Notes: generated by a model not told the origin, from the sequence alone. DNA of 64,000 nt from an uncultured Candidatus Saccharibacteria bacterium (GCA_964499245.1 CAZCIN010000001.1:5106-69105); one strand, 5' to 3'. Counted from the first letter of the stretch, positions 1 to 17,225 are shown. Program-made: numbers and translations.

Positions 1-1
1 C

Positions 2-553
2 CGTCAGCACCCCGTCTTTCAGGCGGTAGCCCATCATTTTTCCAACTGTGGTGCGTCCTTCCTCGAAGGCTTTTTTGATGCGCCATTTTTGGTTTTCACT
101 GGCAGAGTAGCTTTCCGCCTGTGCATAAGCGGCGAGCAGGGTGATAAGAAATTCCCCGTTCTCTGAAAGCGAATGGATATTGTCTTTTTCAAAATACACA
201 TCGATTCCGAGGGCTTTTAGCTCGCGCAGTGTACTTAAAAGCACCACCGTGTTGCGGGCAAAGCGTGTAAACGCTTTGGTGAGGATCAGGTCAACCTTGC
301 CTGCCCGGCAGTCCGCCAGCAGCTGCTGAAATGCTGGCCGCATCTCCTTCGTGCCGGAAATGCCCCGGTCTTCATAGATACCGGCAAATTCCCAATTGGG
401 GTTTGCCTTGATCTGCGCTGTGTAAACTTCCGCCTGATTTTCCAGAGAATTTAGCGCCATTTCTTTTTCCGTGGAGACACGGACATAAGCAGCCACCCGT
501 TTCTTCCTGTGCCGCGGGCTGACTGTCTGGCTGTCTAATTTCTCAATCCTCAT
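2..553 (-). CDS. Large serine recombinase, N-terminal resolvase domain (runs off the window)
   Basis: Hand translation MRIEKLDSQTVSPRHRKKRVAAYVRVSTEKE...YEDRGISGT...DLILTKAFTRFARN; catalytic YxRVS motif; AGGAG RBS; not in the ORF track because it is truncated. Confidence 0.92.
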   Translation of the reverse strand, partial: MRIEKLDSQTVSPRHRKKRVAAYVRVSTEKEMALNSLENQAEVYTAQIKANPNWEFAGIYEDRGISGTKEMRPAFQQLLADCRAGKVDLILTKAFTRFARNTVVLLSTLRELKALGIDVYFEKDNIHSLSENGEFLITLLAAYAQAESYSASENQKWRIKKAFEEGRTTVGKMMGYRLKDGVLT

Positions 554-614
554 AATGCATCATCTCCTTTTTGGTGTTGGAAAGAGGGGGCAGAACGCCC
601 CCTCAGCCTGTAAG

Positions 615-845
615 TTACAATTTCCTGATTTCATCCTCCCCATAGACTGCGCCGAGGCTGCAACCGTTCTCCCAGCTGACAAACACGGTGCCCGTGTCGT
701 CTACTGATTTTACGGTGCCTTTTAAGCCCGGCGGCATATCGCGGTATGGGTCATTCATGGAAACCAGTTCTACCTTTGTGCCTGCGGGATATTGTTCCCG
801 TATTTTTTCTACTATTTCCCGGCTTGGGAACTTCATCTGCGGCAT
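615..845 (-). CDS. DUF4314-type small protein
   Basis: YPAGTKVELVSMNDPY...GTVKSVDDTGTVFVSWENGCSLG pattern, typical neighbour of clostridial recombinases. Confidence 0.8.
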   Translation of the reverse strand: MPQMKFPSREIVEKIREQYPAGTKVELVSMNDPYRDMPPGLKGTVKSVDDTGTVFVSWENGCSLGAVYGEDEIRKL

Positions 846-926
846 GGTGTCTGCTCCTTTCTTTTCTGCGTCACTCTATTAGTCACTCAGGTTGGCATTT
901 CCATCAAGTCTTGATATCATGCCGGA

Positions 927-1385
927 TCATGGCATAGTGTCAGCGTTCCCCGCCTTGCCCGAATCCTCCACAGCCTTCAGAAGAATTTCCCGGTCAAAAT
1001 CCGCATCAAGATATCCTTGATGGATTGTCCCAAGATACCCCCTGCCCGGTGCGCAGTAATGTCTGCCTTCCGTGTTCATGATGTAGACCATTGCATAAAC
1101 CCGGCGGCCATTTACCGTGACCCGCAGCCGTTCCTTGCGGTAAAGGCAGGGCCAGCCTTCATAGCGGTCAAGCGCCTGTTCGTCCCCCGGCTGAATCCGC
1201 CAGACCAGGACGGGGACTTCCCCGCCTTTGCGGCGTTCAATCGTCGCTACCGAGTAGAACATCAGCCGCCAGTTCCTCAGTGTCGCTGTTCCCACGACCT
1301 GTGCCGTGGGACAGCGGTGTGCCATCTGCTCCAGATTGAGGTTGGAGCCGTAGGCGATGTAGAGCCTTTCTTTCCTATTCTTCAT
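927..1385 (-). CDS. Gamma-glutamylcyclotransferase (AIG2-like) family protein
   Basis: LYIAYGSNLN and LDRYEG motifs; start moved to MKNRKE. Confidence 0.88.
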   Translation of the reverse strand: MKNRKERLYIAYGSNLNLEQMAHRCPTAQVVGTATLRNWRLMFYSVATIERRKGGEVPVLVWRIQPGDEQALDRYEGWPCLYRKERLRVTVNGRRVYAMVYIMNTEGRHYCAPGRGYLGTIHQGYLDADFDREILLKAVEDSGKAGNADTMP

Positions 1386-2322
1386 GTGTATTCCCTCCGT
1401 TCCCGATATGGCTTCTGACATTTTCCCGGCTGCCGTAGCGCCAGGCGGCGTTTCCATCCAGATGTTTGTAAAGGTGCTCCCTGCAGCTCTTAAATTCCTC
1501 ACCGATAAAGCCAATGCGGTTTAAATAGGTGCGCATGGCGAACTTCTCGTTCTCGGCCTGGACTTTATGGTAGCGTGCAGACTTCTGTGTAAGGGCCTGA
1601 TGATCCATCGCAAGGGCGAAAACGATATAGGCCCGGACTTTCCCGGCGTGGAGCTCACTGTTGAACCCCCTCAGCTCCACGGTGTGGTTGCCGTGGAAGA
1701 AACTGTGGAGATTGAGGAAATGATACCGGCTCTGGTGGTAATGGGAGTTACGGTTGCCGGCATACTTCTCATACCAAATCCTCTCGATCTGCTCAAATGT
1801 CTTTGGCTTTTGCCGGTTCATCTGATTTACCAGGTAAGCATCCATCTTTTTGCAGTATTCCATCCGGTCCGGTGCAATTTGGAAAGCCTTGTAGAACAGG
1901 TCATTGCGCGAGGCAATCAGGTTCACAAAGTTACGGATGCTGCGCGGGGTGTGTTCGCCCCCGTCCAGATGGATATGGATGCCGCAGGTATTGTTCGTAA
2001 AACCTCCGGCTTTCCGCAGCCTCCTGATGAGTGACTGGATGCTGCCGATATCCTCGTAATAACTGAGGATCGGGCTGACCATCTCCACACTGTAGCTGCT
2101 GTCCGCGCCGACAATCCTCCGGCTCTTTTTCTTCTGGCATCTGATGCTGCCGTCATACATGAATTTCCAGACCCGCCCATCCGGCGCGGTCACTTCGTAG
2201 GCCTCATAGTAGCCGCCGGAATACCTTGCGCTGCCGCGCAGATATTCTGCGGCCGCACCGGCCGCCTTTTCACGGGTAATGCCGGTAAACTCCACCTCAA
2301 TGCCAAATTTGTGTGTAAACAA
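1375..2322 (-). CDS. Putative amidoligase (COOH-NH2 ligase, Amidoligase_2 family)
   Basis: FGIEVEF, EMVSPIL, CGIHIH, TVELRGFN motifs; TTG start behind GGAGGT. Confidence 0.88.
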   Translation of the reverse strand: MFTHKFGIEVEFTGITREKAAGAAAEYLRGSARYSGGYYEAYEVTAPDGRVWKFMYDGSIRCQKKKSRRIVGADSSYSVEMVSPILSYYEDIGSIQSLIRRLRKAGGFTNNTCGIHIHLDGGEHTPRSIRNFVNLIASRNDLFYKAFQIAPDRMEYCKKMDAYLVNQMNRQKPKTFEQIERIWYEKYAGNRNSHYHQSRYHFLNLHSFFHGNHTVELRGFNSELHAGKVRAYIVFALAMDHQALTQKSARYHKVQAENEKFAMRTYLNRIGFIGEEFKSCREHLYKHLDGNAAWRYGSRENVRSHIGNGGNTHEE

Positions 2323-2431
2323 CTGTATCCCACCTCCTTTTTGATTGGCGGCCACGGGAGGCTCTGCGGCACACCGCAGAAAGAAATCCCCGGTGTACCG
2401 CATGCAGTTGTTTCGCTGTTAAAGTTATGCT

Positions 2432-2605
2432 TTAATTTATTACATTTTCCTCCTTTCCCGGCGGCGCGCCGCCGCCAAGGTATCTCTGTGATAATTTCTG
2501 TAAAATCCGATGGTATTCACTAAGCGTGATAAGCCCCTGCCCCAGCAGGTCATCCGTCATGCAACAGAGGGCATGGTACCGAAGCTGGCGTTCAAAAGCT
2601 GTCAT
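2432..2605 (-). CDS. Small SHOCT-like hypothetical protein
   Basis: LLGQGLITLSEY motif; ATGA overlap with the upstream gene. Confidence 0.5.
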   Translation of the reverse strand: MTAFERQLRYHALCCMTDDLLGQGLITLSEYHRILQKLSQRYLGGGAPPGKEENVIN

Positions 2606-3048
2606 CCCCGCACCTCCATACATGTATCTGCCTGCGCAGCTTTCTGGCTGTCGGCAAAACATTTCCGGCAGCAGAACCGTTTATGCGGATTGCCGAAGGC
2701 AGTAAACTCACGCCCGCACTGCTCGCAGACCCGGCTATAAGGGATGCGGCGTTTCTGCTCATTGCCCCATGCGTTCCGGCAGCGGGCTGAACAGAACAGC
2801 TGTTTGCCGCCCAGGGCAGGCTTCTCAAAGTCCCTGCCGCAGTATTTGCATCTGGGCGTAGCGGGCGTCCCCGCGCCCAAAACCACCGCAGGGATAATCT
2901 CATCCGCCTTCGGTGCTTTGCCCATGATATGTCGAAAGGCATAGCGCACAGAACTCTCTCCCCGGCCAAGTTCCCGGCCAATCTGTACAAAACTCTTTCC
3001 CAAAGTCCTCTGTTTCACGATATATTGTTTTTCCTGTTCAGACATCAT
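2602..3048 (-). CDS. HTH plus Cys-rich zinc-finger protein
   Basis: N-terminal SFVQIGRELGRGESSVR helix-turn-helix; CxxC...FCSxxC motif twice. Confidence 0.65.
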   Translation of the reverse strand: MMSEQEKQYIVKQRTLGKSFVQIGRELGRGESSVRYAFRHIMGKAPKADEIIPAVVLGAGTPATPRCKYCGRDFEKPALGGKQLFCSARCRNAWGNEQKRRIPYSRVCEQCGREFTAFGNPHKRFCCRKCFADSQKAAQADTCMEVRG

Positions 3049-3096
3049 GTCTCTTCCCTCCTTCCTGCTATAGCCACGGTGCATAAGTTAAAAATA

Positions 3097-4080
3097 TCAA
3101 AGTGGGCATAGGCAGTCCTCCATATCCAGCTCATCCCGAAGCATGTCGGTAAACTCATCCGGCAGGATTACCGCAAAAACACGCGGGTACTGCGGGAAAG
3201 TCTCACGGATGTGCCGGATCAGCGAACGTTTCCGCGCTTCGTTCTTTACGATCCAGACCACCAGCGGGAATACATCGTCATGCAGGCGCTGTTCGGTGTC
3301 GCTTTTGTAGTATTCATAATAGCGGCGGCATTTTCCGATAATGGTCTGGATGTCCTCAGTGTTCAGGTCTACCTCGATAAACCAGCGCAATTCATACCAT
3401 GCCTCCTCATGGGTCATCCAATCCTGTTTTTCCGTGACAATGGCAAGGTCAGGTTTCAGGATGCGGTTTTTATAACTGCCCTGGTATGGCCGCCAGCAGT
3501 CCGGCTCCACCTGGAGTTCTATAAGTTTCATGTCTTCTTTCTGACAGGTTTCCACCGCCAGCACATAACATTCAGCCACGGAAACAGTATGTGCCAGGGT
3601 TGCAATAGATGGCTCAATGTTACGTTTCCTGATTTCTGGTTCATGGCGGTGTATCTGCAGGATATGCTCGCCGGCTTCGGTCAGGTAATAAATGTATGCC
3701 ATATAGCCACGGCTGCGGCAGTCCACCTTCCGATTGGCGGCGGCAATGAGTCCCAAATCAGACAGAGCTTTCAGGCGGCGGTTGGCAGCGGTCGTGCTGG
3801 CATTTTTACTCGCCCGGCCTGTAAAATAAAGCCGCTGAATCTGTTTTCCGAGGATTGCCCGGCACCGGCAGATGGTGCCAAGAATCTGCCAGTCGAGGTC
3901 GGAGAGTTCCGTCTCCAGTGCAAGCAGGCGCTTTCGGCTGAGCCTTGACGGCGCAGCACTTGTGGCAGGAGATACCGATTCAGAACGGTATCCGTCTTTT
4001 CCCTTATCAGGGGCGGAAGTGCCGCTTTGTGCGCCTTCCGGGAATCCAGTTGTGACTGTGCTGTTCATGGGGTTATTCAT
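3097..4080 (-). CDS. Replication-relaxation (Replic_Relax) family protein
   Basis: Winged-helix N-terminus, LAHTVSVAE, KPDL and FIEVDLNTE motifs. Confidence 0.85.
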   Translation of the reverse strand: MNNPMNSTVTTGFPEGAQSGTSAPDKGKDGYRSESVSPATSAAPSRLSRKRLLALETELSDLDWQILGTICRCRAILGKQIQRLYFTGRASKNASTTAANRRLKALSDLGLIAAANRKVDCRSRGYMAYIYYLTEAGEHILQIHRHEPEIRKRNIEPSIATLAHTVSVAECYVLAVETCQKEDMKLIELQVEPDCWRPYQGSYKNRILKPDLAIVTEKQDWMTHEEAWYELRWFIEVDLNTEDIQTIIGKCRRYYEYYKSDTEQRLHDDVFPLVVWIVKNEARKRSLIRHIRETFPQYPRVFAVILPDEFTDMLRDELDMEDCLCPL

Positions 4081-6253
4081 CCTTCTGCTCCTTCCTGCGG
4101 CGTCCTATGCCGCTCTTTTTGAACCCTTTTGCTTCTTCCTGCGGCGTGGTGGCAGTATCCTGAAATATCCCTTTCAGCTCTGTCTCTACCGCTTCGGCTG
4201 GTGTGCCGTAGCGCGCCATGCTGGCCGCCCTAAGCTCCGCCGCCCCCTGCAGGGGTTCCGGCTTTGGGAGGGTCACGCCCTGCACCCAGCCGGTATTTCT
4301 GCCGCCGCTCTGGAAACTAGCATAGACGTGGTAGCGCATGAGCGAGGCAAAATCCAGCGCCTCCAGCCCGTCAGCCATTGCCGCCATATCCTTGGCGTCC
4401 TTCCCGCTGATGCCGAAAATAATCTTGTTCCGGGCATTGGCATCCACGCCGGAGCGGAGCAGCACCGGCAGCTGGTCACGGTATTGGTGTGCCATGGTAA
4501 TCGCAAGCCCCATGCCCCTTGCCTGCGCCAATGCGTCCGATAAATCGGTTGGCAGTGAGAGGTAATCCTGCAGCTCATCAATGTAGATGCTCACCATTTT
4601 CCGCTTTTCCTGCGGGACATTTGCCCGGCCAAGCGCCAGTGTCCAGGTCAGGCCGACGATCAGTGAGCCAAGCAGCCTTGCAGATTCACCGCCGATAACG
4701 CCTTTATTCAGCGGCACCAGCACAATCTTTGATTCGGTGTAAAGGCTATTTAAGTCAAACTTCGGGTGTCCCTGCCCCAGGCAGTTACGGAGCTTTGGGC
4801 GGAGCAGGAACTGCCGGAGCTTGTTCAAAACGGGCTCGGTCATCTGCTGCCGCTGATATGGGGTCAGGTTCTCAAAACGTGACCAGAAAGGCTTCAGGGC
4901 GATTTCATCTTTTACATTTTTTGTGACGACAGCGCGGAACTTTTCGTTCGTCAGAAGTTCCGGCAGCCACATCAGGGAAGCGCCGTCCACCTCCATGAGT
5001 GTCAGGATGGCAGCCGATAAAATATCCTGTGTGCGGATGCCCCAGCTGTCTGCAAAAATCTCTTTCAAGACTGAAAGTACCGTGTCGGCGGTCAGTTCCT
5101 TGTCCTGCCCCTTTGCACAGGTCAGCGGGTTGAACCCTACCGGCTCCGGGCTGGCCGGATCTATCACCACCACATCTTCTCTGCGGTGCGCGGGAATACG
5201 CTCCAGTACATCATCCACCAGATCCTGCTTCGGGTCGATCACAAGGACACCCCGCCCAGCACCAATATCTGAGAGGATCAGGTTCAGCATGGCGGTAGAC
5301 TTCCCACTCCCCGTAGGCCCTAAAATGATCGTGTGCTCCAGTGCGTCTTTCGGGGAAATACTGAGCCTTTCCCCATTCATGGCAGCCGCAAAGCTCCTGT
5401 CCCCGTTCTTAAACACCGGCTCACTGTACCATCCGGGCGGCAGGGCGGCTTTGGGGTGAAGCGAAACAGTCCCGGGCAGTGCATCCTCGCCTACCGGCAG
5501 GAGCATGAAACCGGAAAGTTCTTTCACCGACAGCCGGAGTGGGAAATGCCATGGCACGCCTGCCCCGGTCAGTTTCTTCGGGTTCTCGCTGGCGGTATAG
5601 ATTTTGACACCTGCCGATTCCAGAATGCGGAAAGCAGCAGTCAGGTTGTGCAGTGGGTCAATATAATCCTTCCAGTTACTGGAGCCGATGCGGATCACCG
5701 CCTGGAACCCGCTCTGTTCGGCTTTTTCCTTTGCCGACTTCACCATGTCGCTGGTGGCTTTCTGTACCGTCCCGGTGATAATCTCCAGCCATGAGGCGTT
5801 CGGATCCTGCATCCCACCAGAGAGCGGCACCGGGCTGTAAGAAGCGCCCAAGACAATCTGTATGGCCAGTTCCTCATTTTCCCCGGTGTTTGCCAGTGCC
5901 GCCAGCCCTGCCCGGAGTACCGCCATGGAAGTGTCCATGTTGAGGGAGAGCAGTTTTTTGGAAGTTTTAAGCTGTGCCGCCCCGGCAGTCTCTTTCCGCG
6001 GGGTCTGACAGATGCTCCCAAAACGGACATCCCCGTGCGCCTTAAAAATGTGTTCTATCTTATCAAGATGCTGGCGTTCCGCGCCGAGCAGGTAACGGAT
6101 TTTACCGCCGCTGCCCCGGCACTCCCACACCACCGCGCCGCGCGGGTGTGTGGCGGCAAGGTGGGAGAGCATACCCCACACCGCTTCAATGGCAAACGGC
6201 CTCTGCCATGCCACTTCCCGCCAGACAAGCTCCTTAAAATCATGTGTACTCAT
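4073..6253 (-). CDS. Type IV coupling protein (VirD4/TraD-like ATPase)
   Basis: Walker A GPTGSGKS, VIDPK, Walker B IYIDELQ, AHQY motif. Confidence 0.85.
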   Translation of the reverse strand: MSTHDFKELVWREVAWQRPFAIEAVWGMLSHLAATHPRGAVVWECRGSGGKIRYLLGAERQHLDKIEHIFKAHGDVRFGSICQTPRKETAGAAQLKTSKKLLSLNMDTSMAVLRAGLAALANTGENEELAIQIVLGASYSPVPLSGGMQDPNASWLEIITGTVQKATSDMVKSAKEKAEQSGFQAVIRIGSSNWKDYIDPLHNLTAAFRILESAGVKIYTASENPKKLTGAGVPWHFPLRLSVKELSGFMLLPVGEDALPGTVSLHPKAALPPGWYSEPVFKNGDRSFAAAMNGERLSISPKDALEHTIILGPTGSGKSTAMLNLILSDIGAGRGVLVIDPKQDLVDDVLERIPAHRREDVVVIDPASPEPVGFNPLTCAKGQDKELTADTVLSVLKEIFADSWGIRTQDILSAAILTLMEVDGASLMWLPELLTNEKFRAVVTKNVKDEIALKPFWSRFENLTPYQRQQMTEPVLNKLRQFLLRPKLRNCLGQGHPKFDLNSLYTESKIVLVPLNKGVIGGESARLLGSLIVGLTWTLALGRANVPQEKRKMVSIYIDELQDYLSLPTDLSDALAQARGMGLAITMAHQYRDQLPVLLRSGVDANARNKIIFGISGKDAKDMAAMADGLEALDFASLMRYHVYASFQSGGRNTGWVQGVTLPKPEPLQGAAELRAASMARYGTPAEAVETELKGIFQDTATTPQEEAKGFKKSGIGRRRKEQKDE

Positions 6254-6488: not shown

Positions 6489-7169
6489 TCACGCTCCCTC
6501 CGTTTTCTTCGTAATATCTTTTGTAGTGTAATCTGCCGATACCGCATTAGCGCATTCCGCTCTTTTCAGGAGATCATATTTCAAAGCGTCACTGTATTGG
6601 GGTACCGGAAAGCCGGGGATAACCACATCGCTTGCGATTTCATTTCCCCAGACGGCCCAGCCGTGGCGGGGACGCCTTGCAAACAGTTCTAAGTATGGGC
6701 CGGGGGATACACGCTCCACGATGTCATAAAATTCCTCCGGCTTATGGGAATGATCCTGTACCGGAAAAAAGCCCCAGTTCGGCTGGCTTTTATATTTTAC
6801 CGGCGCCTTGCCGCGTGTCCCCAGCAGACAGTGTTCTGTGGCATTGCGCAGATATGCCCCCAGCCCGATGCGCGGCTTCACCCATGTAAAGGTTGAACGC
6901 GGCGTAAAACCCCAGACCTCCAGAATGTCATAGCCGATGCGCAGGGTGCCATTCGTCACCCAGAGCCACAGATGGGCATTTTCTTCACAAAGGTCTGCAA
7001 CCGGCAGATCTTTGATCCGAAACGGTTTCAACAGGCTGTAATATCTGACGGCGCCATGCAGCCCATGCTGCAGCACATCCCAGGGCGGGTCGACCACCAC
7101 GGTGGCGGCTCCGTTTGCCAATGTGTCCGGGAATATAGGCATATTTATTGTCATTGCATCAAAACTCAT
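6489..7169 (-). CDS. MT-A70 family adenine methyltransferase (copy 2)
   Basis: VVVDPPW, HLWLWVTN, EHCLLGTRG, HSHKPEEF, LELFARR motifs; start moved to MSFDAM. Confidence 0.9.
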   Translation of the reverse strand: MSFDAMTINMPIFPDTLANGAATVVVDPPWDVLQHGLHGAVRYYSLLKPFRIKDLPVADLCEENAHLWLWVTNGTLRIGYDILEVWGFTPRSTFTWVKPRIGLGAYLRNATEHCLLGTRGKAPVKYKSQPNWGFFPVQDHSHKPEEFYDIVERVSPGPYLELFARRPRHGWAVWGNEIASDVVIPGFPVPQYSDALKYDLLKRAECANAVSADYTTKDITKKTEGA

Positions 7170-7803
7170 AATTTTTCTTCTCCTCTCTGTTTTTGCTGTC
7201 TGGCAAAGCAGACAGAATAGTGCCGCTGTATTTTGGTACTGGAAAACCGGGAACGACCACATCGGAATCAATCTCATTTCCCCAGGCAGCCCAGCCGTGC
7301 CTGCGCCGCCTTGCAAATAACTCCAGGTATGGGCCGGGAGACACACGCTCCACGATGTCATAAAATTCCTCCGGCTTGTGGCTGTGATCCTGTATAGGGA
7401 AAATCCCAACGTTTGGCTGGTTTTTTACCCTGACCGGGGCTTTGCCACGGGTGGCCAGGATGCAGTGTTCGGTGCAGTTTCTCAGGTATACGCCCAGACC
7501 GAGCCGGGGCTTGAACCATGTGAAAATAGAACGGGGTGTGAACCCCCATGCCCTCAGGATGGAGAAACCTTCCTCCATCGTGGCGTTGGTGACCCAGAGC
7601 CAGCAGTGCGCGTTCTCCGCACAGAGGCTTCCGACCGGCAGGGCTTTGATCCGCTCCAGCGTCATGAGTTTATAGTGGTTTACCGCACCATAATTTCCGC
7701 GCTGTTGCACATCCCAGGGCGGGTCAACGATTACCGTGGACGCGCCCTTCGGCATTGTGCCCGGCAGTATGGGAGCCTTTATTTTCATAGCATCAAAAAC
7801 CAT
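7159..7803 (-). CDS. MT-A70 family adenine methyltransferase (copy 1)
   Basis: VIVDPPW, HCWLWVTN, HSHKPEEF, LELFARR motifs. Confidence 0.9.
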   Translation of the reverse strand: MVFDAMKIKAPILPGTMPKGASTVIVDPPWDVQQRGNYGAVNHYKLMTLERIKALPVGSLCAENAHCWLWVTNATMEEGFSILRAWGFTPRSIFTWFKPRLGLGVYLRNCTEHCILATRGKAPVRVKNQPNVGIFPIQDHSHKPEEFYDIVERVSPGPYLELFARRRRHGWAAWGNEIDSDVVVPGFPVPKYSGTILSALPDSKNREEKKNYEF

Positions 7804-8755: not shown

Positions 8756-10003
8756 TTACTTATGACGTCGCAGTTTATAATACAATCGGATGATGTTTGC
8801 CAGGCATGCAACAATGAACCCCCAAAGGACAACCGTTATAATGACCGCAGCTTTTTCCGATTTTTTTACCCTTACCGCAGCATGATCCTGATAGATGGTA
8901 GAGCTGACCATACCTTGCGCCCAGTTGACAAGCACGTTGTCGCCACAGGCGAGATCTTTATCAACAACCTCAGCGGTAAAGCGCACCCAACCAGAGGCGT
9001 TGGCCTTATAAGCACCGATATTGATGCCAGTGGTAAAGAGGTCGCCATCTGGAGTGATCTGCTTACCCTCCTTGTGGTTAGAGTTGTAAAGGTAAGTTGT
9101 GTTCGCGACATAAGCCATGTTGTTTGGCAAAACGTCACGGATAATTACATTCTCTTGAATGTCATTAACAGTATTGTTGTGGAATTCGATTTGGTATTCG
9201 ACCCTATCACCGACCTTAGCGTCGACAGATTCGGTGAATTCATCATGCGTACCGACCAAGCGGACTTTCTTATCTATTTCAAATTCATAGTCATAAACCA
9301 CTCTTACCTTTAAGGTAATATAGCAGGCATACTGGTATCCGCCTGGCATTATGCCGTCCATTTTATCATAACCAATTAAAACGCCTTCCGCTGTTGTTGT
9401 GATTTTATCACCCAGCTCAAGTCCGTCTGGATAAGCATTGTTGTATATAATTGCTGAACCATAAACATATTCCAAATGGAAATTGGTGTCGCTGTGAAAA
9501 TTGACGTAATCCCAATATTTATCCGGGGTTGCATTACTGGAAGTAATAAATCCATTTACTTTAACAGTGGTGCCGCTGTTGTCGGGGATGCTTACCTGAA
9601 CTCTGGTATCCTGGGATGCCGCACCAGACTCTTCATCCTGCTGAGGTACGCTGTTATTATGCACATAGAGCCGGATAAGATATTCCCTTCCATCCTCAAC
9701 ATCCATCACGTCATTTCCGTACCAGTTACTTTTCGTATTATTGGCGATAATATCGGCATTTTGCGCAGAAACAAAATTTGGCTCGTAAGGCTGTGCCCCT
9801 TCTGGGTCAACAATGGAATTAAGCGTAACTGTATCCCCTAATGCCCCTGAGTTTATTTCCTCGATTGTGTAATGTGTGCGGCCACCGCTACTGTCTCCCC
9901 ATGCTAGAGTTTTTATCGGGCTCAGCATGCACAAAAGAATCACTACAGCCAAGCCAACTGGAAAAAGTGAGACATTTGCTTTGGATAATCTGTTCCCCAT
10001 CAA
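8756..10003 (-). CDS. Secreted, membrane-anchored DUF11-type surface protein
   Basis: Signal peptide, KVGDRVEYQIEF...VIIRDVLPNNMAYVANTT conserved-repeat motif, C-terminal TM helix. Confidence 0.7.
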   Translation of the reverse strand: MMGNRLSKANVSLFPVGLAVVILLCMLSPIKTLAWGDSSGGRTHYTIEEINSGALGDTVTLNSIVDPEGAQPYEPNFVSAQNADIIANNTKSNWYGNDVMDVEDGREYLIRLYVHNNSVPQQDEESGAASQDTRVQVSIPDNSGTTVKVNGFITSSNATPDKYWDYVNFHSDTNFHLEYVYGSAIIYNNAYPDGLELGDKITTTAEGVLIGYDKMDGIMPGGYQYACYITLKVRVVYDYEFEIDKKVRLVGTHDEFTESVDAKVGDRVEYQIEFHNNTVNDIQENVIIRDVLPNNMAYVANTTYLYNSNHKEGKQITPDGDLFTTGINIGAYKANASGWVRFTAEVVDKDLACGDNVLVNWAQGMVSSTIYQDHAAVRVKKSEKAAVIITVVLWGFIVACLANIIRLYYKLRRHK

Positions 10004-10992: not shown

Positions 10993-11097
10993 GCAGACAC
11001 CCCTCCTTGCCTAAAAGATGTATAAATTATAACATTTTTTTCGCCTTTTGAAAATGCGCAAGAAAAATGGCTGCAGTATACACCGCAGCCACTTGGC

Positions 11098-11694: not shown

Positions 11695-11868
11695 ATTCTT
11701 CCTCCTATTTTTTGCAAATTTGCACAATAATCGCATCATCGCCCATCCTGCGAGAGGAGAAGCGAGTTCTGCGATTATCGGGAGGGAAACGGGTAGATTA
11801 GATATGTATTAGACATACAGAATATTTTAGTATCTTAATATGCTTATAAGTTAGCTTTATCTAACTTA

Positions 11869-11904
11869 TGCTTTCATTGTAGCACACATGTTCGATTTTG
11901 TCAA
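11869..11904 (-). promoter_or_regulatory. Sigma70 promoter TTGACA-N17-TACAAT
   Basis: Read directly; same extended motif recurs at 18974, 26496 and 35372. Confidence 0.75.
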
Positions 11905-12366
11905 TACTTTTTATGTTTTTTCGTTTAATTTGGCAACCCTTATACAATAATGTGTGAAAGAATTATGCGTTTTTCTTCTCAGCGGTTTCAACTTTGTTTC
12001 ACGTTCATTTCAACTTGTTTTCACAATACAGACAGTTTCTAATCTCTCCCCTAAAATGTATTTAAGCAAGGCAAACCCCTACATCAAACCACAGAAAGCG
12101 GGGTGAAAATCTTCATTGGCGGTCGGGGGAGTTGACTGCTAAGACACTAGAAACCATTAACAAATTCATATCAGGCCACATGTGCGCAGTGAGGCGGGAT
12201 ACGACATACCACATCCTTATGACCGTGATAAAGGCGGTTGTTGGGAGTGGGGGTGTAAGTACCCTTGTTTCCTGCGCATCTTTTTTGCCGTACCTGGGTA
12301 CTGCGGGTTAATCCGATTCTTGGCATCCTGCCGTCACTGCCTCTCTGGCTGGAAAGAGAGGCAAAA

Positions 12367-12837
12367 ATGTCTGATTACAATGATTACATGGAACTCAAAA
12401 AATACTATTTCGAATATCTGTCGATGGACATCATGACCCTAGAAATCAAACAACTATACTGGCGCAGCCTCAAAGGTTCAGAAAGAAGCTCCCGCTGCAG
12501 GCTGGAGAACGGCACCCGCTGCATGGCAAACTGCCGCAACTGCCCAAGACAACGAGAGGGCAATCCGCTTTCCCTTGATGCCTTGTCGGAAACAGGCATA
12601 GAGGCCGCCGATGTGTTCTCTTTGGAAGACCATATCATGGAACTGGAACTATCAGAGGCTCTCGCTGATGCCATCAACGCCCTGAGCGAGCAGAATCGAA
12701 TCATTATCCTCCTGTTCAGCGAAGGTGCCACAGAACGGGCTATCGCAGCAAAGGTCGGCATGAGCCAGAAAGGGGTCAACAACCGAATACACAAAATTAT
12801 TAATATATTGCGAGAAAGCCTCAAGGGCTTCTTCTAA
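12367..12837 (+). CDS. Sigma70 region-4 domain protein of the type found on clostridial mobile elements
   Basis: LSEQNRIIILLFSEGATERAIAAKVGMSQKGVNNRIHKI region-4 HTH; start moved to MSDYND. Confidence 0.75.
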   Translation: MSDYNDYMELKKYYFEYLSMDIMTLEIKQLYWRSLKGSERSSRCRLENGTRCMANCRNCPRQREGNPLSLDALSETGIEAADVFSLEDHIMELELSEALADAINALSEQNRIIILLFSEGATERAIAAKVGMSQKGVNNRIHKIINILRESLKGFF

Positions 12838-12842
12838 GGTTA

Positions 12843-12869
12843 GTGCCGCCAGCCAAATACTGGCGGCAC
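12843..12869. terminator. Hairpin between convergent genes
   Basis: GTGCCGCCAG / CTGGCGGCAC 10-bp stem. Confidence 0.6.
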
Positions 12870-12876
12870 CGCTTCG

Positions 12877-13461: not shown

Positions 13462-13573
13462 CCCTATATGCCTCCTTCTGGTTTATAGAGCCGCCGGGCA
13501 GCCATTATTGCCCCGTCTCTCTATAGTGCAGAGGACAATTATTGGGTGTTTGAGAACTGGAAAGAACAGAAAC

Positions 13574-14146
13574 CTAGAACAGCCGCATCTCCAGATATGC
13601 TTTGTCCAGATCATCCTGCGCCACACCGAGGTAGCGTTTCGTGACCTCATAGCTACTATGGTTATAAATTTCCGTAATGATTATGGGTGACACGTTTCCG
13701 CTTGTCCACGCATGGTATCCCCATGTCTTTCTGAGACTATGACAGCCAAGGTTGCCATCCAAGCCTAATTCTGTAGCTGCGTCCTGTATAATCCGCCAAG
13801 CCTGCACCCGGCTGATTGGACGCGCATTTTTACGGTTGTTTACAAAAACAAAATCGCTGTGGCTGTGTGGGTAGTACAGCCGCAGCGCATCAATGGCCTG
13901 TTCGTTTAGGGCAATCAATTTTGCTTTGCCGGTTTTTTGTTCTGTAATTTTGACGTGTACCTTGAAGCGATCCCGCTCCACGTCATAAATCTCTGACCAG
14001 CAGATTCCTAATAAGTCGCTGATTCGTAATGCCGTACAGGTACCAAGCACCACCAGCGTATAGTTCCTTAATTCCCCTTTCTCCAAAAAATAATCCGCTA
14101 AAGCATGAAGCTGGGACTGGTCTCGGATTGGTTCAGTTGTTGCCAT
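13574..14146 (-). CDS. Small tyrosine recombinase (catalytic domain only)
   Basis: LRISDL, HSLRKTWGYH, TKRYLG supply the R-H-R-Y catalytic set; no arm-binding domain. Confidence 0.9.
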   Translation of the reverse strand: MATTEPIRDQSQLHALADYFLEKGELRNYTLVVLGTCTALRISDLLGICWSEIYDVERDRFKVHVKITEQKTGKAKLIALNEQAIDALRLYYPHSHSDFVFVNNRKNARPISRVQAWRIIQDAATELGLDGNLGCHSLRKTWGYHAWTSGNVSPIIITEIYNHSSYEVTKRYLGVAQDDLDKAYLEMRLF

Positions 14147-14471
14147 AATACATTCCCTCCTAATCTGTTTTTGCAATAAGTATAAAGCTCACAGATTAGG
14201 ATGTAACAAACTTTGAAAATTATTACCTCTTTTGGCAGATATTTTATGGTTAACAAGGGTAATGTGTGGTAAAACGTTCCTCAAAAGTGGACGAACCACT
14301 AAAATATGTTTGGACAATACCGGAAAAGAGCCATAAAATGCCCCTTATGTGCCTTGAACGCAGGGGTAAAATATGCTAAAATAAGACAGACTTCAAAAAA
14401 TGTTACATCCGACCCGCCAGGGCGGTTTTTTGACGAGCAAAACAAATATAACAGAGAGGAAAAAGTGAAGA

Positions 14472-15410
14472 ATGAAAAGACAATTTATGGTAATTTTGTT
14501 GGCCGGTGGGCTGACGCTTGGACTGTGCGGATGCGGAGGGGGCAGTAGTGCAAGTGCAATGTCGGCGCCGCCGGAGGAAACGGTAGAGCCGAGCGTGGAG
14601 GATGAAGCAGCCGTCGCGGAGAGCGAAGTGAAGTCTGAAGAAGCTGATGCGGAAAGCTATTCTGTTGATGAGGAACAGCCGGATCAGGCATCAAGTGACG
14701 CAGAACCCATTACTCAACCGGAAGAAAGTCTGGAAAACGAAAATGCCGAGAGCAACGCCGATATGTTGTCGCTGCTGAGTACTCACGTAATTGAGTATGA
14801 AGACCAGGGCGGCTATCAAATCCGCGAGACATGTCAGCTGAACCCGATTTTCCGGGAAGATGACAGTGAGGATATGTATGCGTTATGGGAAGCACTCGGT
14901 AATGATGTTGCGGATTTTCCGAACGAGGAGTCGTTGTATGGCGCGAGCCACTCTATGGAATATGCCCGTGACGCCGACAGCTGTAGCAGTATGGAGTACA
15001 TTATCGGAACCTACAAAATAGAGAATTTAACGGATGGTTTCCCGATTACTCCCGACAATCTTCGTACTTACGTCAGGGCACTCCATGCCGAGCAAGTTAC
15101 CGCCGGCGATAATGAACATGACGCAAACGCGGCCAATTCCTTTAATCTCCGTTCTGTGTCTGCGGTCATAAATGCCGACGGTATCGTTTGCTACGGAGAG
15201 CAAGACGCGGTGGTAATTGGCAACCTAAAGATGACTTCCGATACTTGGGGACCAGTATGCTTTGTCATTGCCCTACCGAATGGGGCTACACCTAACCGGC
15301 CTAATGGGTACTGTTATGATAAGATCAGCGTAGAATTTGGCAACAAAGCCTACGCCGACTCCGGTTATGACGTGTTTGAATTAAATTATTTTGGAGAAGG
15401 AGGTGATTGA
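14472..15410 (+). CDS. Acidic lipoprotein, paralog A
   Basis: Lipobox LCGC; similar to 16019-17038. Confidence 0.75.
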   Translation: MKRQFMVILLAGGLTLGLCGCGGGSSASAMSAPPEETVEPSVEDEAAVAESEVKSEEADAESYSVDEEQPDQASSDAEPITQPEESLENENAESNADMLSLLSTHVIEYEDQGGYQIRETCQLNPIFREDDSEDMYALWEALGNDVADFPNEESLYGASHSMEYARDADSCSSMEYIIGTYKIENLTDGFPITPDNLRTYVRALHAEQVTAGDNEHDANAANSFNLRSVSAVINADGIVCYGEQDAVVIGNLKMTSDTWGPVCFVIALPNGATPNRPNGYCYDKISVEFGNKAYADSGYDVFELNYFGEGGD

Positions 15411-15411
15411 T

Positions 15412-15780
15412 ATGGTATCAACATATACTATGTCAGTGGACGATGAACTTTTTTGGATCTGGAGACTGAAGCGAGGAAAGGCAGAACCTCCTGAACCGGC
15501 GTATGTACCGGTTGAAGAAAAATATGATAGAAATGCCCTGAAAAACATTCTTCGTGAATGGTATGGCCGGCACAGCTGTCCGGCTTGTGGTAAATCATTT
15601 TTCTTTATTCATTCGGCATTCAACTGTCATCCGAAAGCATCAGCTTATAAGGTTTGGGAGGAATTTGCACACAAAGGTCCGGCAGGTGCTACGTCATTAT
15701 CGGATTTGGTTAGGGCTGACGTCTGCAACCCTTACTCCGGTGGCGGTTATTACGGTGGCGGCGGGCCTTATGGCTTTTAA
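15412..15780 (+). CDS. Hypothetical protein with CxxC
   Basis: GGAGG RBS, CPACG motif. Confidence 0.5.
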   Translation: MVSTYTMSVDDELFWIWRLKRGKAEPPEPAYVPVEEKYDRNALKNILREWYGRHSCPACGKSFFFIHSAFNCHPKASAYKVWEEFAHKGPAGATSLSDLVRADVCNPYSGGGYYGGGGPYGF

Positions 15781-16018
15781 GCTGCCTTCTGCCCAATCGT
15801 GGGGGTGGCGCTTAGGCGCTGAATCAGGCTAAATACCTCGAAGTAGAAATCAGGAGTCGTATCACTATCACGGCCCAGCGCAAACTCGCGCTTTTTACTC
15901 TTTGCTTTTGAGCCCCAACGGAATTACAGTTATTTCCGTCGCCCCCTTCAAAATGATATCCTTGGTTGACAAGGGCTATTTTTATTGATAAGTCAAACAA
16001 TGGGAGGAAAAGTGAAAG

Positions 16019-17038
16019 ATGAAAAGACGATTTATGGCAATCTTGTTGGCTGGTGGGCTGATGCTCGGACTGTGTGGGTGCGAGGATAGTGTATCTATCG
16101 ATGCAGACGAGTATATGGAACAGCTAAGACAGGAAGAAGCATCAAGGCAGGAGCCCATGAGTGAGATATCGCCCGAGGGACTCGACATGGAAGATTATTC
16201 TATCGATAAACTGGTAGAGATGTGGTCTTCAGGAGTTCTCACTGAGGAAGATCTCGGACGCAAGGTTGCAACCGGAGAAATAAGTTACGAAACTTACGAG
16301 GAGTTCTTAAGCTATATAGGGGACGACAATCAGGAATTTGACATTGCCCGGCCAGAAGAAACCTTGGAAGGCAATAATCCTGCAGGCGACATCGACACAT
16401 CAGGACTCTTGACTGCACACATGGTGGAATACGAGGATCAAGACGGTTACACGATCCGTGAGACTTGTCAGTTGAGTCCGATTTTCACAGAAGATGATGC
16501 GGAAACTATGTATGCATTGTGGGAAGCGCTGGGCCAGGATGCAACATCTTTCCCGAGTGAGGAATCGCTGTATAATGCAAGCTACTTATTGAGGGATGCC
16601 CGTGATACATGCAACTGTAACAAACTGGAATATATTATTGGGACTTATACGATAGAAAATTTAACGGAAGGATTCCCGATTACGCCCGATAGCCCTCGCA
16701 CTTATGCTGGGCAACTTGCGACCAAACATGTTTCTGCTACAGATCGAGAGCATGATGCAACTGCTGCCGACTTCTTCAACGTGCGTTCCGTGGTGACAGT
16801 TGTGCAGTCTAGTGATACGGTTTGTTATGCCGAACAAGATGCGGTAATATTTGGTAAAGCAACAATGGATTCAAATACTTGGGGTCCGTATACCTTTGTC
16901 ATTGCTCTACCGAACGGGATTACGCCCAACCGACCCGATGGATATCGTTATGACAAAATTCCGGTAATACTTAGTGCGCATGTTTACTTCTATTCAGATT
17001 ATGACGCATTTGGATTGACATACTTTGAAGATTATTAA
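16019..17038 (+). CDS. Acidic lipoprotein, paralog B
   Basis: Lipobox LCGC; shares IRETCQL, EYIIGTY, FPITPD and IALPNGxTPNRP blocks with paralog A. Confidence 0.75.
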   Translation: MKRRFMAILLAGGLMLGLCGCEDSVSIDADEYMEQLRQEEASRQEPMSEISPEGLDMEDYSIDKLVEMWSSGVLTEEDLGRKVATGEISYETYEEFLSYIGDDNQEFDIARPEETLEGNNPAGDIDTSGLLTAHMVEYEDQDGYTIRETCQLSPIFTEDDAETMYALWEALGQDATSFPSEESLYNASYLLRDARDTCNCNKLEYIIGTYTIENLTEGFPITPDSPRTYAGQLATKHVSATDREHDATAADFFNVRSVVTVVQSSDTVCYAEQDAVIFGKATMDSNTWGPYTFVIALPNGITPNRPDGYRYDKIPVILSAHVYFYSDYDAFGLTYFEDY

Positions 17039-17225
17039 AAGGAAAATCCCCGCCCATTTGGACGGGAATTTTTATGTCCTTTATGCTTGTACTCGATGCT
17101 TTATAAATATTTTCTAGCCGTTGCATAAAAGAAGTAAATCAAGTAAAATAAGGTGAAACAAGTAGAATAACGTAAAACAAGTAAAATGCCACATCGGGGG
17201 TTCGGACTGACGTGGTAACACAGGA

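What the first reader, a model, noticed from the sequence alone, without database searches (positions are those of the whole stretch)
1..17215. Clostridia-type mobilisable element contiguous with an apparent Saccharibacteria chromosome
Seen: the left 17 kb has Shine-Dalgarno-led operons and near-balanced G/C (line 4621 has 19 G and 20 C by hand count), while the rest has mostly leaderless starts and a G-rich plus strand. Known: the serine recombinase, DUF4314, amidoligase and sigma70-r4 gene set is typical of gut Clostridia elements. Inference: either a cross-phylum acquisition by a CPR epibiont or an assembly chimera.
Basis: partly seen in the sequence, partly recalled or inferred. Interest (0 to 1): 0.65.

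Follow-up and report, generated by a model that had tools for sequence, protein, structure and literature searches.

The report
Clostridial mobile element inside Saccharibacteria chromosome
A roughly 22-kb mobile DNA element of the kind carried by gut Lachnospiraceae (Clostridia) is really inserted, at the very end of a serine tRNA gene, in the chromosome of an ultra-small gut Saccharibacteria bacterium, so this is recent gene transfer between two distant phyla and not an assembly error.

Summary

- **The two sides.** Window 1-17222 is the right-hand 17.2 kb of a ~22.3-kb integrative mobilizable element. It carries tandem large serine recombinases, a Replic_Relax relaxase, a T4SS coupling protein and no mating-pore genes. 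Window 17223-64000 is a rodent-gut Saccharibacteria chromosome.
- **Insertion site.** The element sits exactly at the CCA end of tRNA-Ser(GGA). Only a 2-bp "CA" (17221-17222) is shared between element and target. The deduced attP has 10/12 inverted half-sites around it.
- **Read-level support.** Both junctions occur in independent per-run assemblies of four runs, at the element's own depth. Two of those runs also hold the empty tRNA-Ser allele, with 18-23% occupancy.
- **Independent cases.** A related element sits at the same nucleotide in another study. Another sits at the CCA of tRNA-Glu in the Saccharibacteria MAG MGBC122299.
- **Origin.** Copies 99.97-100% identical occur in other insertion contexts. 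One has the left flank seen in cultured Lachnospiraceae bacterium 10-1 (~93% nt over the core). One lies next to a Lachnospiraceae-like lysis cassette.
- **Recurrence.** At least nine Saccharibacteria MAG contigs carry relatives. Five of them are 95-100% identical to copies in Clostridia genomes.

The transfer route (mobilisation by conjugation) is inferred, not shown.

The parts
2..553 (-). N-terminal 184 aa of the first of two tandem large serine recombinases. The gene runs off the left edge of the window. The YVRVST motif contains the putative catalytic serine.
   Evidence: Pfam Resolvase E = 3.1e-33. Translation. Contigs 100% identical to the window show the full 445-aa protein (Resolvase + Recombinase + Zn_ribbon_recom), followed by a second 469-aa protein.
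615..845 (-). DUF4314 protein (76 aa).
   Evidence: Pfam PF14192 E = 5.5e-31.
927..1385 (-). GGACT/AIG2-like gamma-glutamyl cyclotransferase-fold protein (152 aa by the public gene call).
   Evidence: Pfam GGACT E = 5.8e-13. Gene call in identical contigs.
1375..2322 (-). Amidoligase_2 protein (315 aa by the public gene call).
   Evidence: Pfam PF12224 E = 9e-70. Gene call.
3097..4080 (-). Putative relaxase (Replic_Relax family, 327 aa).
   Evidence: Pfam PF13814 E = 3.8e-28.
4073..6253 (-). Type IV coupling protein, VirD4/TcpA-like P-loop ATPase (726 aa by the public gene call).
   Evidence: Pfam T4SS-DNA_transf, 32.6 bits against a cut-off of 20.1; also TrwB_AAD_bind. 96% aa identity to Lachnospiraceae bacterium 10-1.
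6489..7803 (-). Two tandem MT-A70 DNA methyltransferase paralogues (about 6489-7184 and 7159-7803).
   Evidence: Pfam MT-A70 E = 1.8e-25 and 9.4e-29. The two copies are about 70% identical to each other (cross-hits). Unitigs break here at the repeat.
8756..10003 (-). Gram-positive-type surface protein with a DUF11/isopeptide-fimbrial-like domain, an N-terminal signal and a C-terminal membrane anchor.
   Evidence: Pfam DUF11. NCBIfam TIGR01451 E = 4e-10. Sequence.
12265..12837 (+). Small sigma-70 region-4 / ECF-like sigma factor.
   Evidence: Pfam Sigma70_r4_2 E = 4.8e-7. NCBIfam sigma70-ECF.
13574..14146 (-). Short (190-aa) tyrosine recombinase, the candidate invertase of the adjacent switch.
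   Evidence: Pfam Phage_integrase E = 9e-22. 190-aa gene call.
14199..14410 (.). Invertible 212-bp promoter segment bounded by 19-nt inverted repeats (14199-14217 and 14392-14410). In the window its promoters face the lipoprotein operon.
   Evidence: Inverted repeat, 16/19 complementary. Promoter-like sites on the + strand at 14311-14339 and 14354-14382. The same segment is in the opposite orientation in L001 and L002.
14472..17038 (+). Cargo operon: two paralogous lipoproteins (312 aa at 14472-15410 and 339 aa at 16019-17038, with lipobox LGLCGC) and a 122-aa ORF (15412-15780).
   Evidence: Sequences. The paralogues are about 69% identical in nucleotides. No Pfam or NCBIfam hit.
17209..17222 (+). 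Right terminus of the element: recombinase half-site GACGTGGTAACA plus the CA crossover dinucleotide (17221-17222).
   Evidence: Ten contigs with the element lose similarity at 17222 and run into five different flanks. Empty-site contigs gain similarity at 17221. The left terminus is the inverted half-site GACGTACTAACA.
17223..17262 (+). Chromosomal sequence that directly follows tRNA-Ser(GGA) in empty-site genomes (hairpin AAGCAAAGACTCTATAC...GTATAGAGTCTTTGCTT).
   Evidence: L011 reads ...CGCTTCCGC-CA-GGAAGCAAAGACTC, with tRNA-Ser at 9729-9818. Sequence.
17405..19636 (.). First chromosomal genes: YunG (17405-17842, +), radical SAM/SPASM (17911-18939, -) and NDK (19088-19636, +).
   Evidence: Pfam. 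The same gene order follows NusA-hypothetical-tRNA-Ser in empty-site contigs. The listed NDK hits are all Saccharibacteria.

Best explanation
Window 1-17222 is the right-hand three quarters of a ~22.3-kb integrative mobilizable element (IME) of a family resident in rodent-gut Lachnospiraceae and other Clostridia. It is integrated in the chromosome of a rodent-gut Saccharibacteria (Nanosyncoccus-like) population.

**Shown**
- The element is joined on both sides to the site that in related genomes reads NusA - hypothetical - tRNA-Ser(GGA) | YunG.
- The insertion point is the CA of the tRNA's encoded CCA end. The tRNA gene therefore stays intact.
- Only 2 bp are shared between element ends and target.
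- The element ends are imperfect inverted repeats around that dinucleotide. This is the signature of a large serine recombinase, and the element encodes two in tandem at its left end.
- Occupied and empty alleles coexist in the same samples.
- Near-identical copies sit in Clostridia-type contexts elsewhere.

**Inferred**
- The element was excised as a circle in a Lachnospiraceae donor.
- It was nicked by its Replic_Relax relaxase and delivered by its own coupling protein through the mating pore of a co-resident conjugative element.
- It entered a Saccharibacteria cell and was integrated by the serine recombinase(s) into a tRNA 3' end that resembles its usual targets.

**Cargo**
- Two MT-A70 methylases and an amidoligase/GGACT pair.
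- A Gram-positive-type surface protein and a small sigma factor.
- A lipoprotein operon behind a promoter that is flipped by a short tyrosine recombinase.
For: **Taxonomy of the two sides**
- All 80 listed hits of the NDK protein are Saccharibacteria or Nanosyncoccus MAGs, and there is synteny with MGBC122299.
- The coupling protein is 96% identical in amino acids, and the element core about 93% in nucleotides, to Lachnospiraceae bacterium 10-1 (an isolate, 1.08-Mb scaffold) and to MAG MGBC132469.

**Right junction**
- In run X1 a 1416-nt unitig spans 15913-17328 with no mismatch. The same holds in X2.
- In X3 and X4 the occupied unitig (depth 52.3 and 32.9) and an empty tRNA-Ser unitig (171.1 and 153.1) both feed the shared unitig that starts at 17221.

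**Left junction**
- In X1 and X3, unitigs at the element's depth continue past the element's left terminus into CGGAAGCGACAGGATTCGAACCTGCG. This is the reverse complement of the tRNA-Ser 3' end.
- The tRNA-Ser is annotated in empty-site contigs and ends at the position equal to window 17222.

**Depth**
- Element depth is uniform along 1-17222 and differs from chromosome depth: X1 about 600 against 691, X3 about 53 against 200, X4 about 35-46 against 195.

**att sites**
- attL ...CGCTTCCGC-CA-TGTTAGTACGTC.
- attR GACGTGGTAACA-CA-GGAAGC.
- The half-sites match 10/12 as inverted repeats.

**Independent replicates**
- L017 and L018, from another study, have a related end at the same CA. The empty allele L012 comes from that same study.
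- L162 (MGBC122299) has the left end at the CCA of tRNA-Glu.
- L134 and L131 have element ends at tRNA-Ala.

**Near-identical copies in other contexts**
- L153-L156 are 99.97-100% identical to the window.
- L155 has the Lachnospiraceae 10-1 flank.
- The amidase next to the L153 copy is closest to Lachnospiraceae.

**Domains and composition**
Against: - All four runs that hold the junction belong to one study. They are available only as k = 31 contigs, so no single long read was seen spanning the whole 22 kb.
- The left junction was read only as a 26-nt overhang on a homologous reference, because the true left end lies outside the window.
- No circular (attP) junction was seen, so ongoing excision is not shown.
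- The relaxase family (Replic_Relax) is not a canonical MOB class.
- No oriT was identified.
- Conjugative entry into a Saccharibacteria cell has never been demonstrated, as far as I know. These bacteria are also reported to be naturally competent (my own recollection of the literature, not checked here).
- Whether any element gene is expressed in the Saccharibacteria host is unknown.
Confidence: 0.88

Rival explanations
1. Assembly chimera. A Clostridia element contig and a Saccharibacteria contig were joined in silico through a short shared repeat.
For: Mobile elements often sit at contig ends in the Saccharibacteria MAGs (L110, L134 and L137 lie at contig extremities). In four rat-gut runs from other studies the element's right end is joined to other flanks and the Saccharibacteria relative has the empty site.
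Against: - Only 2 bp are shared at the junction, too little for a de Bruijn graph mis-join.
- Junction k-mers are present at 33-602x in four separately assembled runs, and both junctions are seen.
- Occupied plus empty depths add up to the chromosome depth in X3 and X4.
- The breakpoint falls exactly on a tRNA CCA end with recombinase-type inverted half-sites.
- There is an independent related insertion at the same nucleotide in another study.
Confidence: 0.02
2. The integration is real, but the element entered by natural transformation, or by vesicle or phage-mediated uptake of host DNA, rather than by conjugative mobilisation.
For: Saccharibacteria are reported to take up DNA through competence machinery (my recollection, not tested here). 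The element has no mating-pore genes of its own. In the four junction-holding runs essentially all copies sit in the Saccharibacteria site, so no donor copy is evident.
Against: - Site-specific integration needs a circular double-stranded attP substrate and expressed recombinase. Conjugative delivery with relaxase-mediated recircularisation provides this naturally, and uptake of fragmented single strands does not.
- The element keeps an intact relaxase and coupling-protein module at 100% identity to copies elsewhere.
- The same family has entered Saccharibacteria repeatedly at different tRNA genes. This fits an active transfer function.
Confidence: 0.25
3. Opposite direction. The element family is native to Saccharibacteria and has spread from them into Lachnospiraceae.
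For: Nine or more Saccharibacteria MAG contigs carry relatives, several at tRNA genes. The data show sharing, not direction.
Against: - About 40 of the 51 related loci are Clostridia, including isolates with megabase scaffolds.
- The core has 54% GC, negative GC skew and foreign tetranucleotide usage relative to the chromosome.
- It has strong Shine-Dalgarno sites, unlike the chromosome.
- It has a Gram-positive-type surface protein and a sigma factor.
- The insertion is polymorphic, and absent from closely related Saccharibacteria.
Confidence: 0.05

Closest known systems
Element in Lachnospiraceae bacterium 10-1 (KE159810.1, about 956.9-979.1 kb) and in Lachnospiraceae MAG MGBC132469
   Same: Same gene order: two serine recombinases, DUF4314, GGACT, amidoligase, Replic_Relax, coupling protein, MT-A70, surface protein, sigma factor and tyrosine recombinase. 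Nucleotide identity is 85-93% over window 1-9310 and 11689-14218. The left terminus is the same.
   Different: The host phylum and the insertion site differ (left flank ...CATGGTGCTAGCAC-CA, not a tRNA). Window 9311-11688 has no nucleotide match. The lipoprotein operon is only about 69% alike (seen in L135). The 10-1 element continues further on the right.
Tn4451/Tn4453 (TnpX) and Tn5397 (TndX) of clostridia: transposons moved by a large serine recombinase (from my knowledge of the literature)
   Same: Excision and integration by a large serine recombinase, with a 2-bp crossover and no longer target duplication. Several different target sites resemble the element's joint. Tn4451 is mobilisable rather than self-transmissible.
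   Different: Here there are two tandem recombinases, a CA rather than a GA dinucleotide, a Replic_Relax relaxase plus its own coupling protein rather than TnpZ, a size of about 22 kb, no antibiotic-resistance gene seen among the ORFs scanned, and a preference for tRNA CCA ends in Saccharibacteria.
Integrative mobilizable elements of streptococci and other Firmicutes (relaxase, with or without a coupling protein, plus a serine or tyrosine integrase, often at tRNA 3' ends; from my knowledge of the literature)
   Same: Modular make-up: an integration module, a relaxase, a TcpA/VirD4-like coupling protein and no mating-pore genes. Insertion at the 3' end of tRNA genes without inactivating them.
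   Different: Found here in a Candidate Phyla Radiation bacterium. The cargo includes a recombinase-controlled invertible promoter driving lipoproteins.
SCCmec CcrA/CcrB (from my knowledge of the literature)
   Same: Two adjacent large serine recombinase genes serve one element that integrates at a single conserved chromosomal 3' gene end.
   Different: No relaxase or coupling protein in SCCmec. The target is rlmH, not a tRNA. No sequence relationship was tested.

Membership tests
Integrative mobilizable element (IME) | Own integration/excision recombinase | tested here: met
   Resolvase domain at window 2-553 (E = 3e-33). Two full-length large serine recombinases lie immediately left of the window in 100%-identical contigs.
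Integrative mobilizable element (IME) | Defined ends, with occupied and empty target sites | tested here: met
   Right end at 17222 and left end about 5.05 kb left of the window. Empty tRNA-Ser sites occur in related genomes and in the same samples.
Integrative mobilizable element (IME) | Relaxase (with or without a coupling protein) for DNA processing | tested here: met
   Replic_Relax, 99.3 bits against a cut-off of 25.3. T4SS-DNA_transf, 32.6 bits against 20.1. Nicking activity and oriT were not tested.
Integrative mobilizable element (IME) | No mating-pore (VirB4 and other MPF) genes, which distinguishes it from an ICE | tested here: met
   No VirB4/TrbL-type hit in any ORF of the 22 kb that was scanned. 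Several small ORFs have no hit at all, so this rests on absence of evidence.
Integrative mobilizable element (IME) | Transfer to a recipient with the help of a conjugative element | not testable with these tools
   Only indirect evidence: 99.97-100% identical copies at several different insertion sites, one of them in this Saccharibacteria chromosome and others in Clostridia-type contexts.
Large serine recombinase (integrase/transposase) systems | Resolvase + Recombinase + zinc-ribbon domain architecture with an N-terminal catalytic serine | tested here: met
   All three Pfam domains are present in both proteins. The YVRVST motif is in the window-encoded N-terminus.
Large serine recombinase (integrase/transposase) systems | Crossover at a 2-bp central dinucleotide, with no longer direct repeat | tested here: met
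   Element-side similarity ends at 17222 and target-side similarity begins at 17221. The same CA is found at the left junction and in four other contexts.
Large serine recombinase (integrase/transposase) systems | attP made of imperfect inverted half-sites around the dinucleotide | tested here: met
   GACGTGGTAACA-CA-TGTTAGTACGTC. The half-sites are 10/12 identical as inverted repeats. The attP joint is deduced, not observed.
Saccharibacteria chromosome (right part of the window) | Closest relatives and synteny within Saccharibacteria | tested here: met
   The 80 listed NDK loci are all Saccharibacteria or Nanosyncoccus, with a top hit of 96% aa. There is about 80% nt synteny over 17.9-29.4 kb with MGBC122299. 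No 16S gene or full marker set lies in the window.
Prophage | Capsid, terminase or tail genes, or similarity to known phages | tested here: not met
   No such Pfam hits and no megablast match in the phage collection. The holin and amidase seen in L153 lie outside the element's end.
Integrative conjugative element (ICE) | Complete type IV secretion/mating-pore module | tested here: not met
   Only the coupling protein is present. A variant in L001 carries a 1281-aa TrbL_3 protein, but the window copy does not.

The most novel reading that the evidence does not exclude
Rodent-gut Saccharibacteria exchange live mobile elements with Lachnospiraceae because they are physically attached to them. On this reading the element family marks Lachnospiraceae or related Clostridia as the so far unknown hosts of gut Saccharibacteria. 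All cultured hosts that I know of are Actinobacteria. Shared IMEs at 95-100% identity could then be used to assign hosts to uncultured CPR bacteria. A further possibility is that the element's relaxase and coupling protein plug into the relaxase-less, monoderm-type T4SS that most Patescibacteria carry (PMC12102498), so that the epibiont becomes a donor too.
Probability: 0.25. Interest if true: 0.85.

Novelty: new member of a known kind. Interest (0 to 1): 0.62.

Why it matters
As a machine, the element is an ordinary Firmicutes-type IME. What is unusual is where it sits.

- **Recent inter-phylum transfer.** It is a site-specific, population-polymorphic insertion in a CPR/Patescibacteria chromosome. 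Copies identical or nearly identical over several kilobases occur in Clostridia-type contexts. This is read-level evidence for very recent transfer into an ultra-small epibiont with a reduced genome.
- **Recurrence.** The same family has done this repeatedly, at tRNA-Ser, tRNA-Glu and tRNA-Ala.
- **A testable host question.** It makes two questions testable: who gut Saccharibacteria live on, and how DNA reaches them.
- **A possible genetic tool.** The recombinases and the short attB offer a natural candidate tool for putting DNA into Saccharibacteria.
- **A warning for genome curation.** 'Contamination' filters that remove Clostridia-like regions from CPR genomes may delete real biology.

My paper searches found general statements that Patescibacteria acquired mobile elements (PMC12102498). 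They found no report of this element family or of a Lachnospiraceae-Saccharibacteria link.

Tried and rejected
- **Exact look-up of the amidoligase ORF** failed because the longest-ORF start was wrong. The DUF4314 protein worked instead.
The homologous GTDB locus L135 at 82% likeness gave the overhang.
- **An exact scan for the right-end 26-mer** in GTDB representative genomes found nothing. The left-end motif found four loci.
- **The Nanopore run X24** with the same organism label held nothing relevant. The label is evidently the animal host.
- **RNA runs** did not hold the junction, so expression in this host could not be assessed.
- **A suspected internal junction near 8238** rested on the GC drop and on the start of L002. 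I rejected it because unitigs of X1, X3 and X4 run through it at constant depth.
- **Prophage and plasmid readings** were rejected (and domain content).
- **The tyrosine recombinase as the integrase of the element** was considered and rejected. It is only 190 aa and lies internal to the element. It sits next to a segment that is found in both orientations.

Full report
**1. The observation**

The compositional contrast is real.
- Window 1-17222 has GC skew -0.044. Window 17223-64000 has +0.203, locally up to +0.4.
- Strand-symmetrised tetranucleotide profiles of 1-8 kb correlate with the rest of the window at r = 0.30-0.35. Chromosomal 4-kb chunks correlate with each other at 0.73-0.86. The 8-16 kb part is intermediate.
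- In a rough ORF set, 82% of left-hand ORFs have a candidate start with anti-Shine-Dalgarno pairing of -8 kcal/mol or better. The figure for right-hand ORFs is 36%. 'Leaderless' as such cannot be tested without transcript ends.

The named genes are all present:
- a Resolvase-domain recombinase running off the left edge (2-553, minus strand);
- DUF4314, a GGACT/AIG2-like protein and Amidoligase_2;
- a Replic_Relax protein and a VirD4/TcpA-like coupling ATPase;
- two MT-A70 methylases;
- a DUF11/isopeptide-type surface protein and a sigma-70 region-4 protein;
- also a 190-aa tyrosine recombinase.

**2. Who owns each side**

The NDK protein at 19088-19636 has its 80 listed loci among GTDB species representatives exclusively in Saccharibacteria or Nanosyncoccus MAGs from mouse, rat and ruminant guts. 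The best is MGBC122299 at 96% aa. That MAG is syntenic with window 17.9-29.4 kb at about 80% nt, so it is a different species of the same lineage. The rest of the window encodes ordinary envelope functions: rhamnose and rhamnan synthesis, glycosyltransferases, an ABC-2 exporter, LytR and YidC.

The coupling protein of the left part has its best relatives in two Lachnospiraceae genomes at 96% aa. One is Lachnospiraceae bacterium 10-1, a cultured isolate with a 1.08-Mb scaffold. The other is Lachnospiraceae MAG MGBC132469. Acetatifactor follows at 93%. About 40 further Clostridia genomes follow at 50-72%.

At the DNA level, the 10-1 and MGBC132469 elements match window 1-9310 and 11689-14218 at 84-94%. 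So the whole left part, not just its GC-rich first 8 kb, belongs to one Lachnospiraceae-type element.

**3. The junction is real and precise**

Exact-protein look-ups gave two informative sets of public contigs.
- Ten contigs carrying the 339-aa cargo protein all lose similarity to the window at 17222. They continue into five different flanks.
- Contigs carrying YunG have the order NusA - hypothetical - tRNA-Ser(GGA) - YunG. In one group similarity to the window begins at 17221, which is the penultimate base of the tRNA's encoded CCA. In a second strain group it begins at 17296, after a different sequence downstream of the tRNA.

Element and target therefore share only the dinucleotide CA (17221-17222).

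Four runs of one study (X1-X4) hold all sampled words across the junction. Their per-run assemblies are k = 31 graphs, because neighbouring pieces overlap by exactly 30 nt.
- In X1 a unitig covers 15913-17328 without a mismatch. The same holds in X2.
- In X3 and X4 two unitigs converge on the shared unitig that begins at 17221. One is the occupied form (depth 52.3 and 32.9). The other is the empty form ending ...GGTTCGAATCCTGTCGCTTCCGC (depth 171.1 and 153.1).
- Occupancy is therefore about 23% and 18% in X3 and X4. It is close to complete in X1 (602 against 691) and in X2.
- Element depth is flat from 1 to 17222: X1 571-630, X3 52-61, X4 33-47. It is distinct from chromosome depth (691, 200 and 195).
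- A suspected internal seam at about 8.2 kb is not one, because unitigs cross it.

**4. The left end**

The unitigs continue 4.8-5.1 kb beyond window position 1. Public contigs 99.97-100% identical to window 1-6738 show what lies there:
- the rest of the first recombinase (445 aa);
- a second one (469 aa), both with Resolvase + Recombinase + Zn-ribbon domains;
- four small ORFs without family hits.

Similarity among all copies stops at ...GACGTACTAACA-TG, followed by different flanks. I laid X1-X4 on the homologous Lachnospiraceae 10-1 locus. In X1 and X3, element-depth unitigs run past this terminus into CGGAAGCGACAGGATTCGAACCTGCG. This is the reverse complement of the tRNA-Ser 3' end.

The two junctions are therefore:
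- attL: tRNA-Ser...CGCTTCCGC-CA-TGTTAGTACGTC...
- attR: ...GACGTGGTAACA-CA-GGAAGCAAAG...

The tRNA gene remains complete. The element is about 22.3 kb. The deduced attP, GACGTGGTAACA-CA-TGTTAGTACGTC, has half-sites identical at 10 of 12 positions as inverted repeats. A 2-bp crossover within inverted half-sites is the hallmark of large serine recombinases (established knowledge of phiC31, Bxb1, TnpX and TndX).

**5. Independent replication**

- In two runs of another study, a related element is joined to the same CA of the same tRNA-Ser site. It is 85% identical over the last 190 nt and has the identical last 18 nt. It sits in a strain with a different downstream sequence. The empty allele is present in that study too (L017 and L018 against L012).
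- In MGBC122299 the left terminus follows the CCA of tRNA-Glu(CTC) (...GGAATCAC-CA-TGTTAGTACG). An 82-nt remnant of the same terminus lies 70 nt after tRNA-Leu on another contig.
- Nine Saccharibacteria MAG contigs carry relatives of the coupling protein, at about 57% aa to this one and 40% for L139.
- For five of these, the DNA is 95-100% identical to copies in Clostridia genomes:
  - L110 against the isolate 'Bacterium D16-76', 99.6% over 13.4 kb;
  - L117 against Lachnospiraceae MGB1, 100% over 5 kb;
  - L131, L134 and L137 against Lachnospiraceae or Roseburia MAGs, 96-98%.
- Two of them end at tRNA-Ala genes.
- In rat-gut runs of other studies, the same right end is joined to other flanks and the Saccharibacteria relative has the empty site. 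The insertion is therefore recent and local, not ancestral.

**6. Where the identical copies live**

- L155 is 100% identical over 3.4 kb. It has the same left flank as the Lachnospiraceae 10-1 element (GTGCTAGCACCATGTAATAA).
- L153 is 99.97% identical over 6.7 kb. It is followed by a holin and an amidase. The amidase's closest relatives are Lachnospiraceae MAGs (69% and 62%) and other Clostridia.
- One right flank (L010) is the inverted 3' end of another tRNA.

The element thus uses several targets, like the TnpX/TndX transposons. tRNA 3' ends are among them. Their conservation across phyla plausibly explains why a Saccharibacteria site is usable.

**7. What it is and how it works**

- **Shown:** a defined ~22.3-kb element with a recombinase module, a relaxase, a coupling protein and no mating-pore genes. 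That makes it an IME. It is integrated site-specifically, polymorphic in the population and foreign in composition.
- **Inferred:** excision as a circle, mobilisation through a helper element's pore from a Clostridia donor, and integration by the serine recombinase(s). Uptake by competence is the main rival for the entry step.
- **Not shown:** expression in the new host, excision from it (no attP unitig) or onward transfer.
- **Cargo:** two MT-A70 methylases (plausibly anti-restriction), an amidoligase/GGACT pair, a surface protein and a sigma factor. There is also a lipoprotein operon (lipobox LGLCGC) behind a 212-bp segment. That segment is bounded by 19-nt inverted repeats and carries outward-facing promoter-like sites. 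It is found in both orientations in public contigs. I read it as a phase-variation switch operated by the adjacent 190-aa tyrosine recombinase.

**8. Comparison and novelty**

The closest relative is the unnamed element of Lachnospiraceae bacterium 10-1. Mechanistically the element resembles Tn4451/Tn5397-type serine-recombinase transposons and Firmicutes IMEs. The tandem recombinases recall CcrAB.

There was no near-identical match in the plasmid or phage collections. The paper searches found general statements: Patescibacteria carry about a hundred relaxases and probably acquired mobile elements by conjugation, and their own T4SS is monoderm-like but lacks a relaxase (PMC12102498). They also found that host guesses from gene transfer remain unvalidated (PMC11659515). 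They did not find this element family or a Lachnospiraceae-Saccharibacteria link.

As a system it is a new member of a known kind. As a case it is well-documented, very recent inter-phylum transfer into a CPR epibiont.

**9. Verdict**

- The interpretation of cross-phylum acquisition is supported, and the chimera is rejected.
- Confidence in real integration by a serine recombinase at tRNA-Ser is 0.88.
- Interest is 0.62. It would be higher if the host-link reading holds.

Noticed in passing
window 13574-17038: A candidate phase-variation switch inside the element. A 212-bp segment (14199-14410) is bounded by 19-nt inverted repeats and carries two promoter-like sites. In the window these face an operon of two paralogous lipoproteins. 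Contigs L001 and L002 have the segment in the opposite orientation. A 190-aa tyrosine recombinase gene lies next to it. In run X2 the contigs break at both repeats.
   Followed up: partly
window 51158-53026 (-): A 622-aa protein with six ChW ('clostridial hydrophobic W') repeats (Pfam E = 1.9e-82) is encoded in the Saccharibacteria chromosome. GC skew is locally lower there. The domain is typical of Clostridia surface proteins, so this could be an older transfer or a host-binding protein.
   Followed up: no
window 26000-34000 and 36000-39000: The plus strand has very strong positive GC skew (+0.25 to +0.35), although the well-supported genes there (Wzy_C, GT1, Bac_transf, ABC transporter) are on the minus strand. 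The skew therefore runs against the coding strand and rises monotonically over 47 kb.
   Followed up: no
window 17296-17342 and 19676-19982: Short interspersed repeats in the Saccharibacteria chromosome. The GC-rich palindromic stretch around 17296-17342 is joined to several different contexts in runs X2 and X10. The stretch 19676-19982 matches two places in MGBC122299. The stretch 19867-19975 is replaced by other sequence in some contigs.
   Followed up: no
L162 2527-2640 and L165 7132-7371 (Saccharibacteria MAG MGBC122299): The closest GTDB relative of the window's genome has a related element at the CCA of tRNA-Glu(CTC). On another contig it has an 82-nt solo remnant of the same terminus after ...GGGCAC-CA, 70 nt downstream of tRNA-Leu(TAG).
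   Followed up: partly
L001 1761-7400: A variant of the element carries a 1281-aa TrbL_3 protein and a ParE toxin gene left of the tyrosine recombinase, in place of the window's 8.2-13.5 kb module. Modules are therefore shuffled within the family, and some members may carry mating-pore parts.
   Followed up: no
L010 1310-1360: In one public contig the identical right end is joined to the inverted 3' end of another tRNA (GTTGAAGCGACAGGATTTGAACC...). This half-site closely resembles the reverse complement of the Saccharibacteria tRNA-Ser half-site.
   Followed up: partly
window 6489-7803: There are two tandem MT-A70 methyltransferase genes about 70% identical to each other. The relative L152 has one. 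The repeat causes the only unitig breaks inside the element.
   Followed up: no
window 20453-20529 (-): ARAGORN calls a tRNA-Arg(CCT) that Rfam's tRNA model does not report at gathering threshold. It overlaps a 118-aa ORF on the other strand.
   Followed up: no
window 14755-15942: In runs X3 and X4 this part of the lipoprotein operon has four to six times the depth of the rest of the element (199-225 against 33-53). In X1 it shows 12 substitutions. Other copies of this cargo gene must therefore exist elsewhere in the same communities.
   Followed up: no
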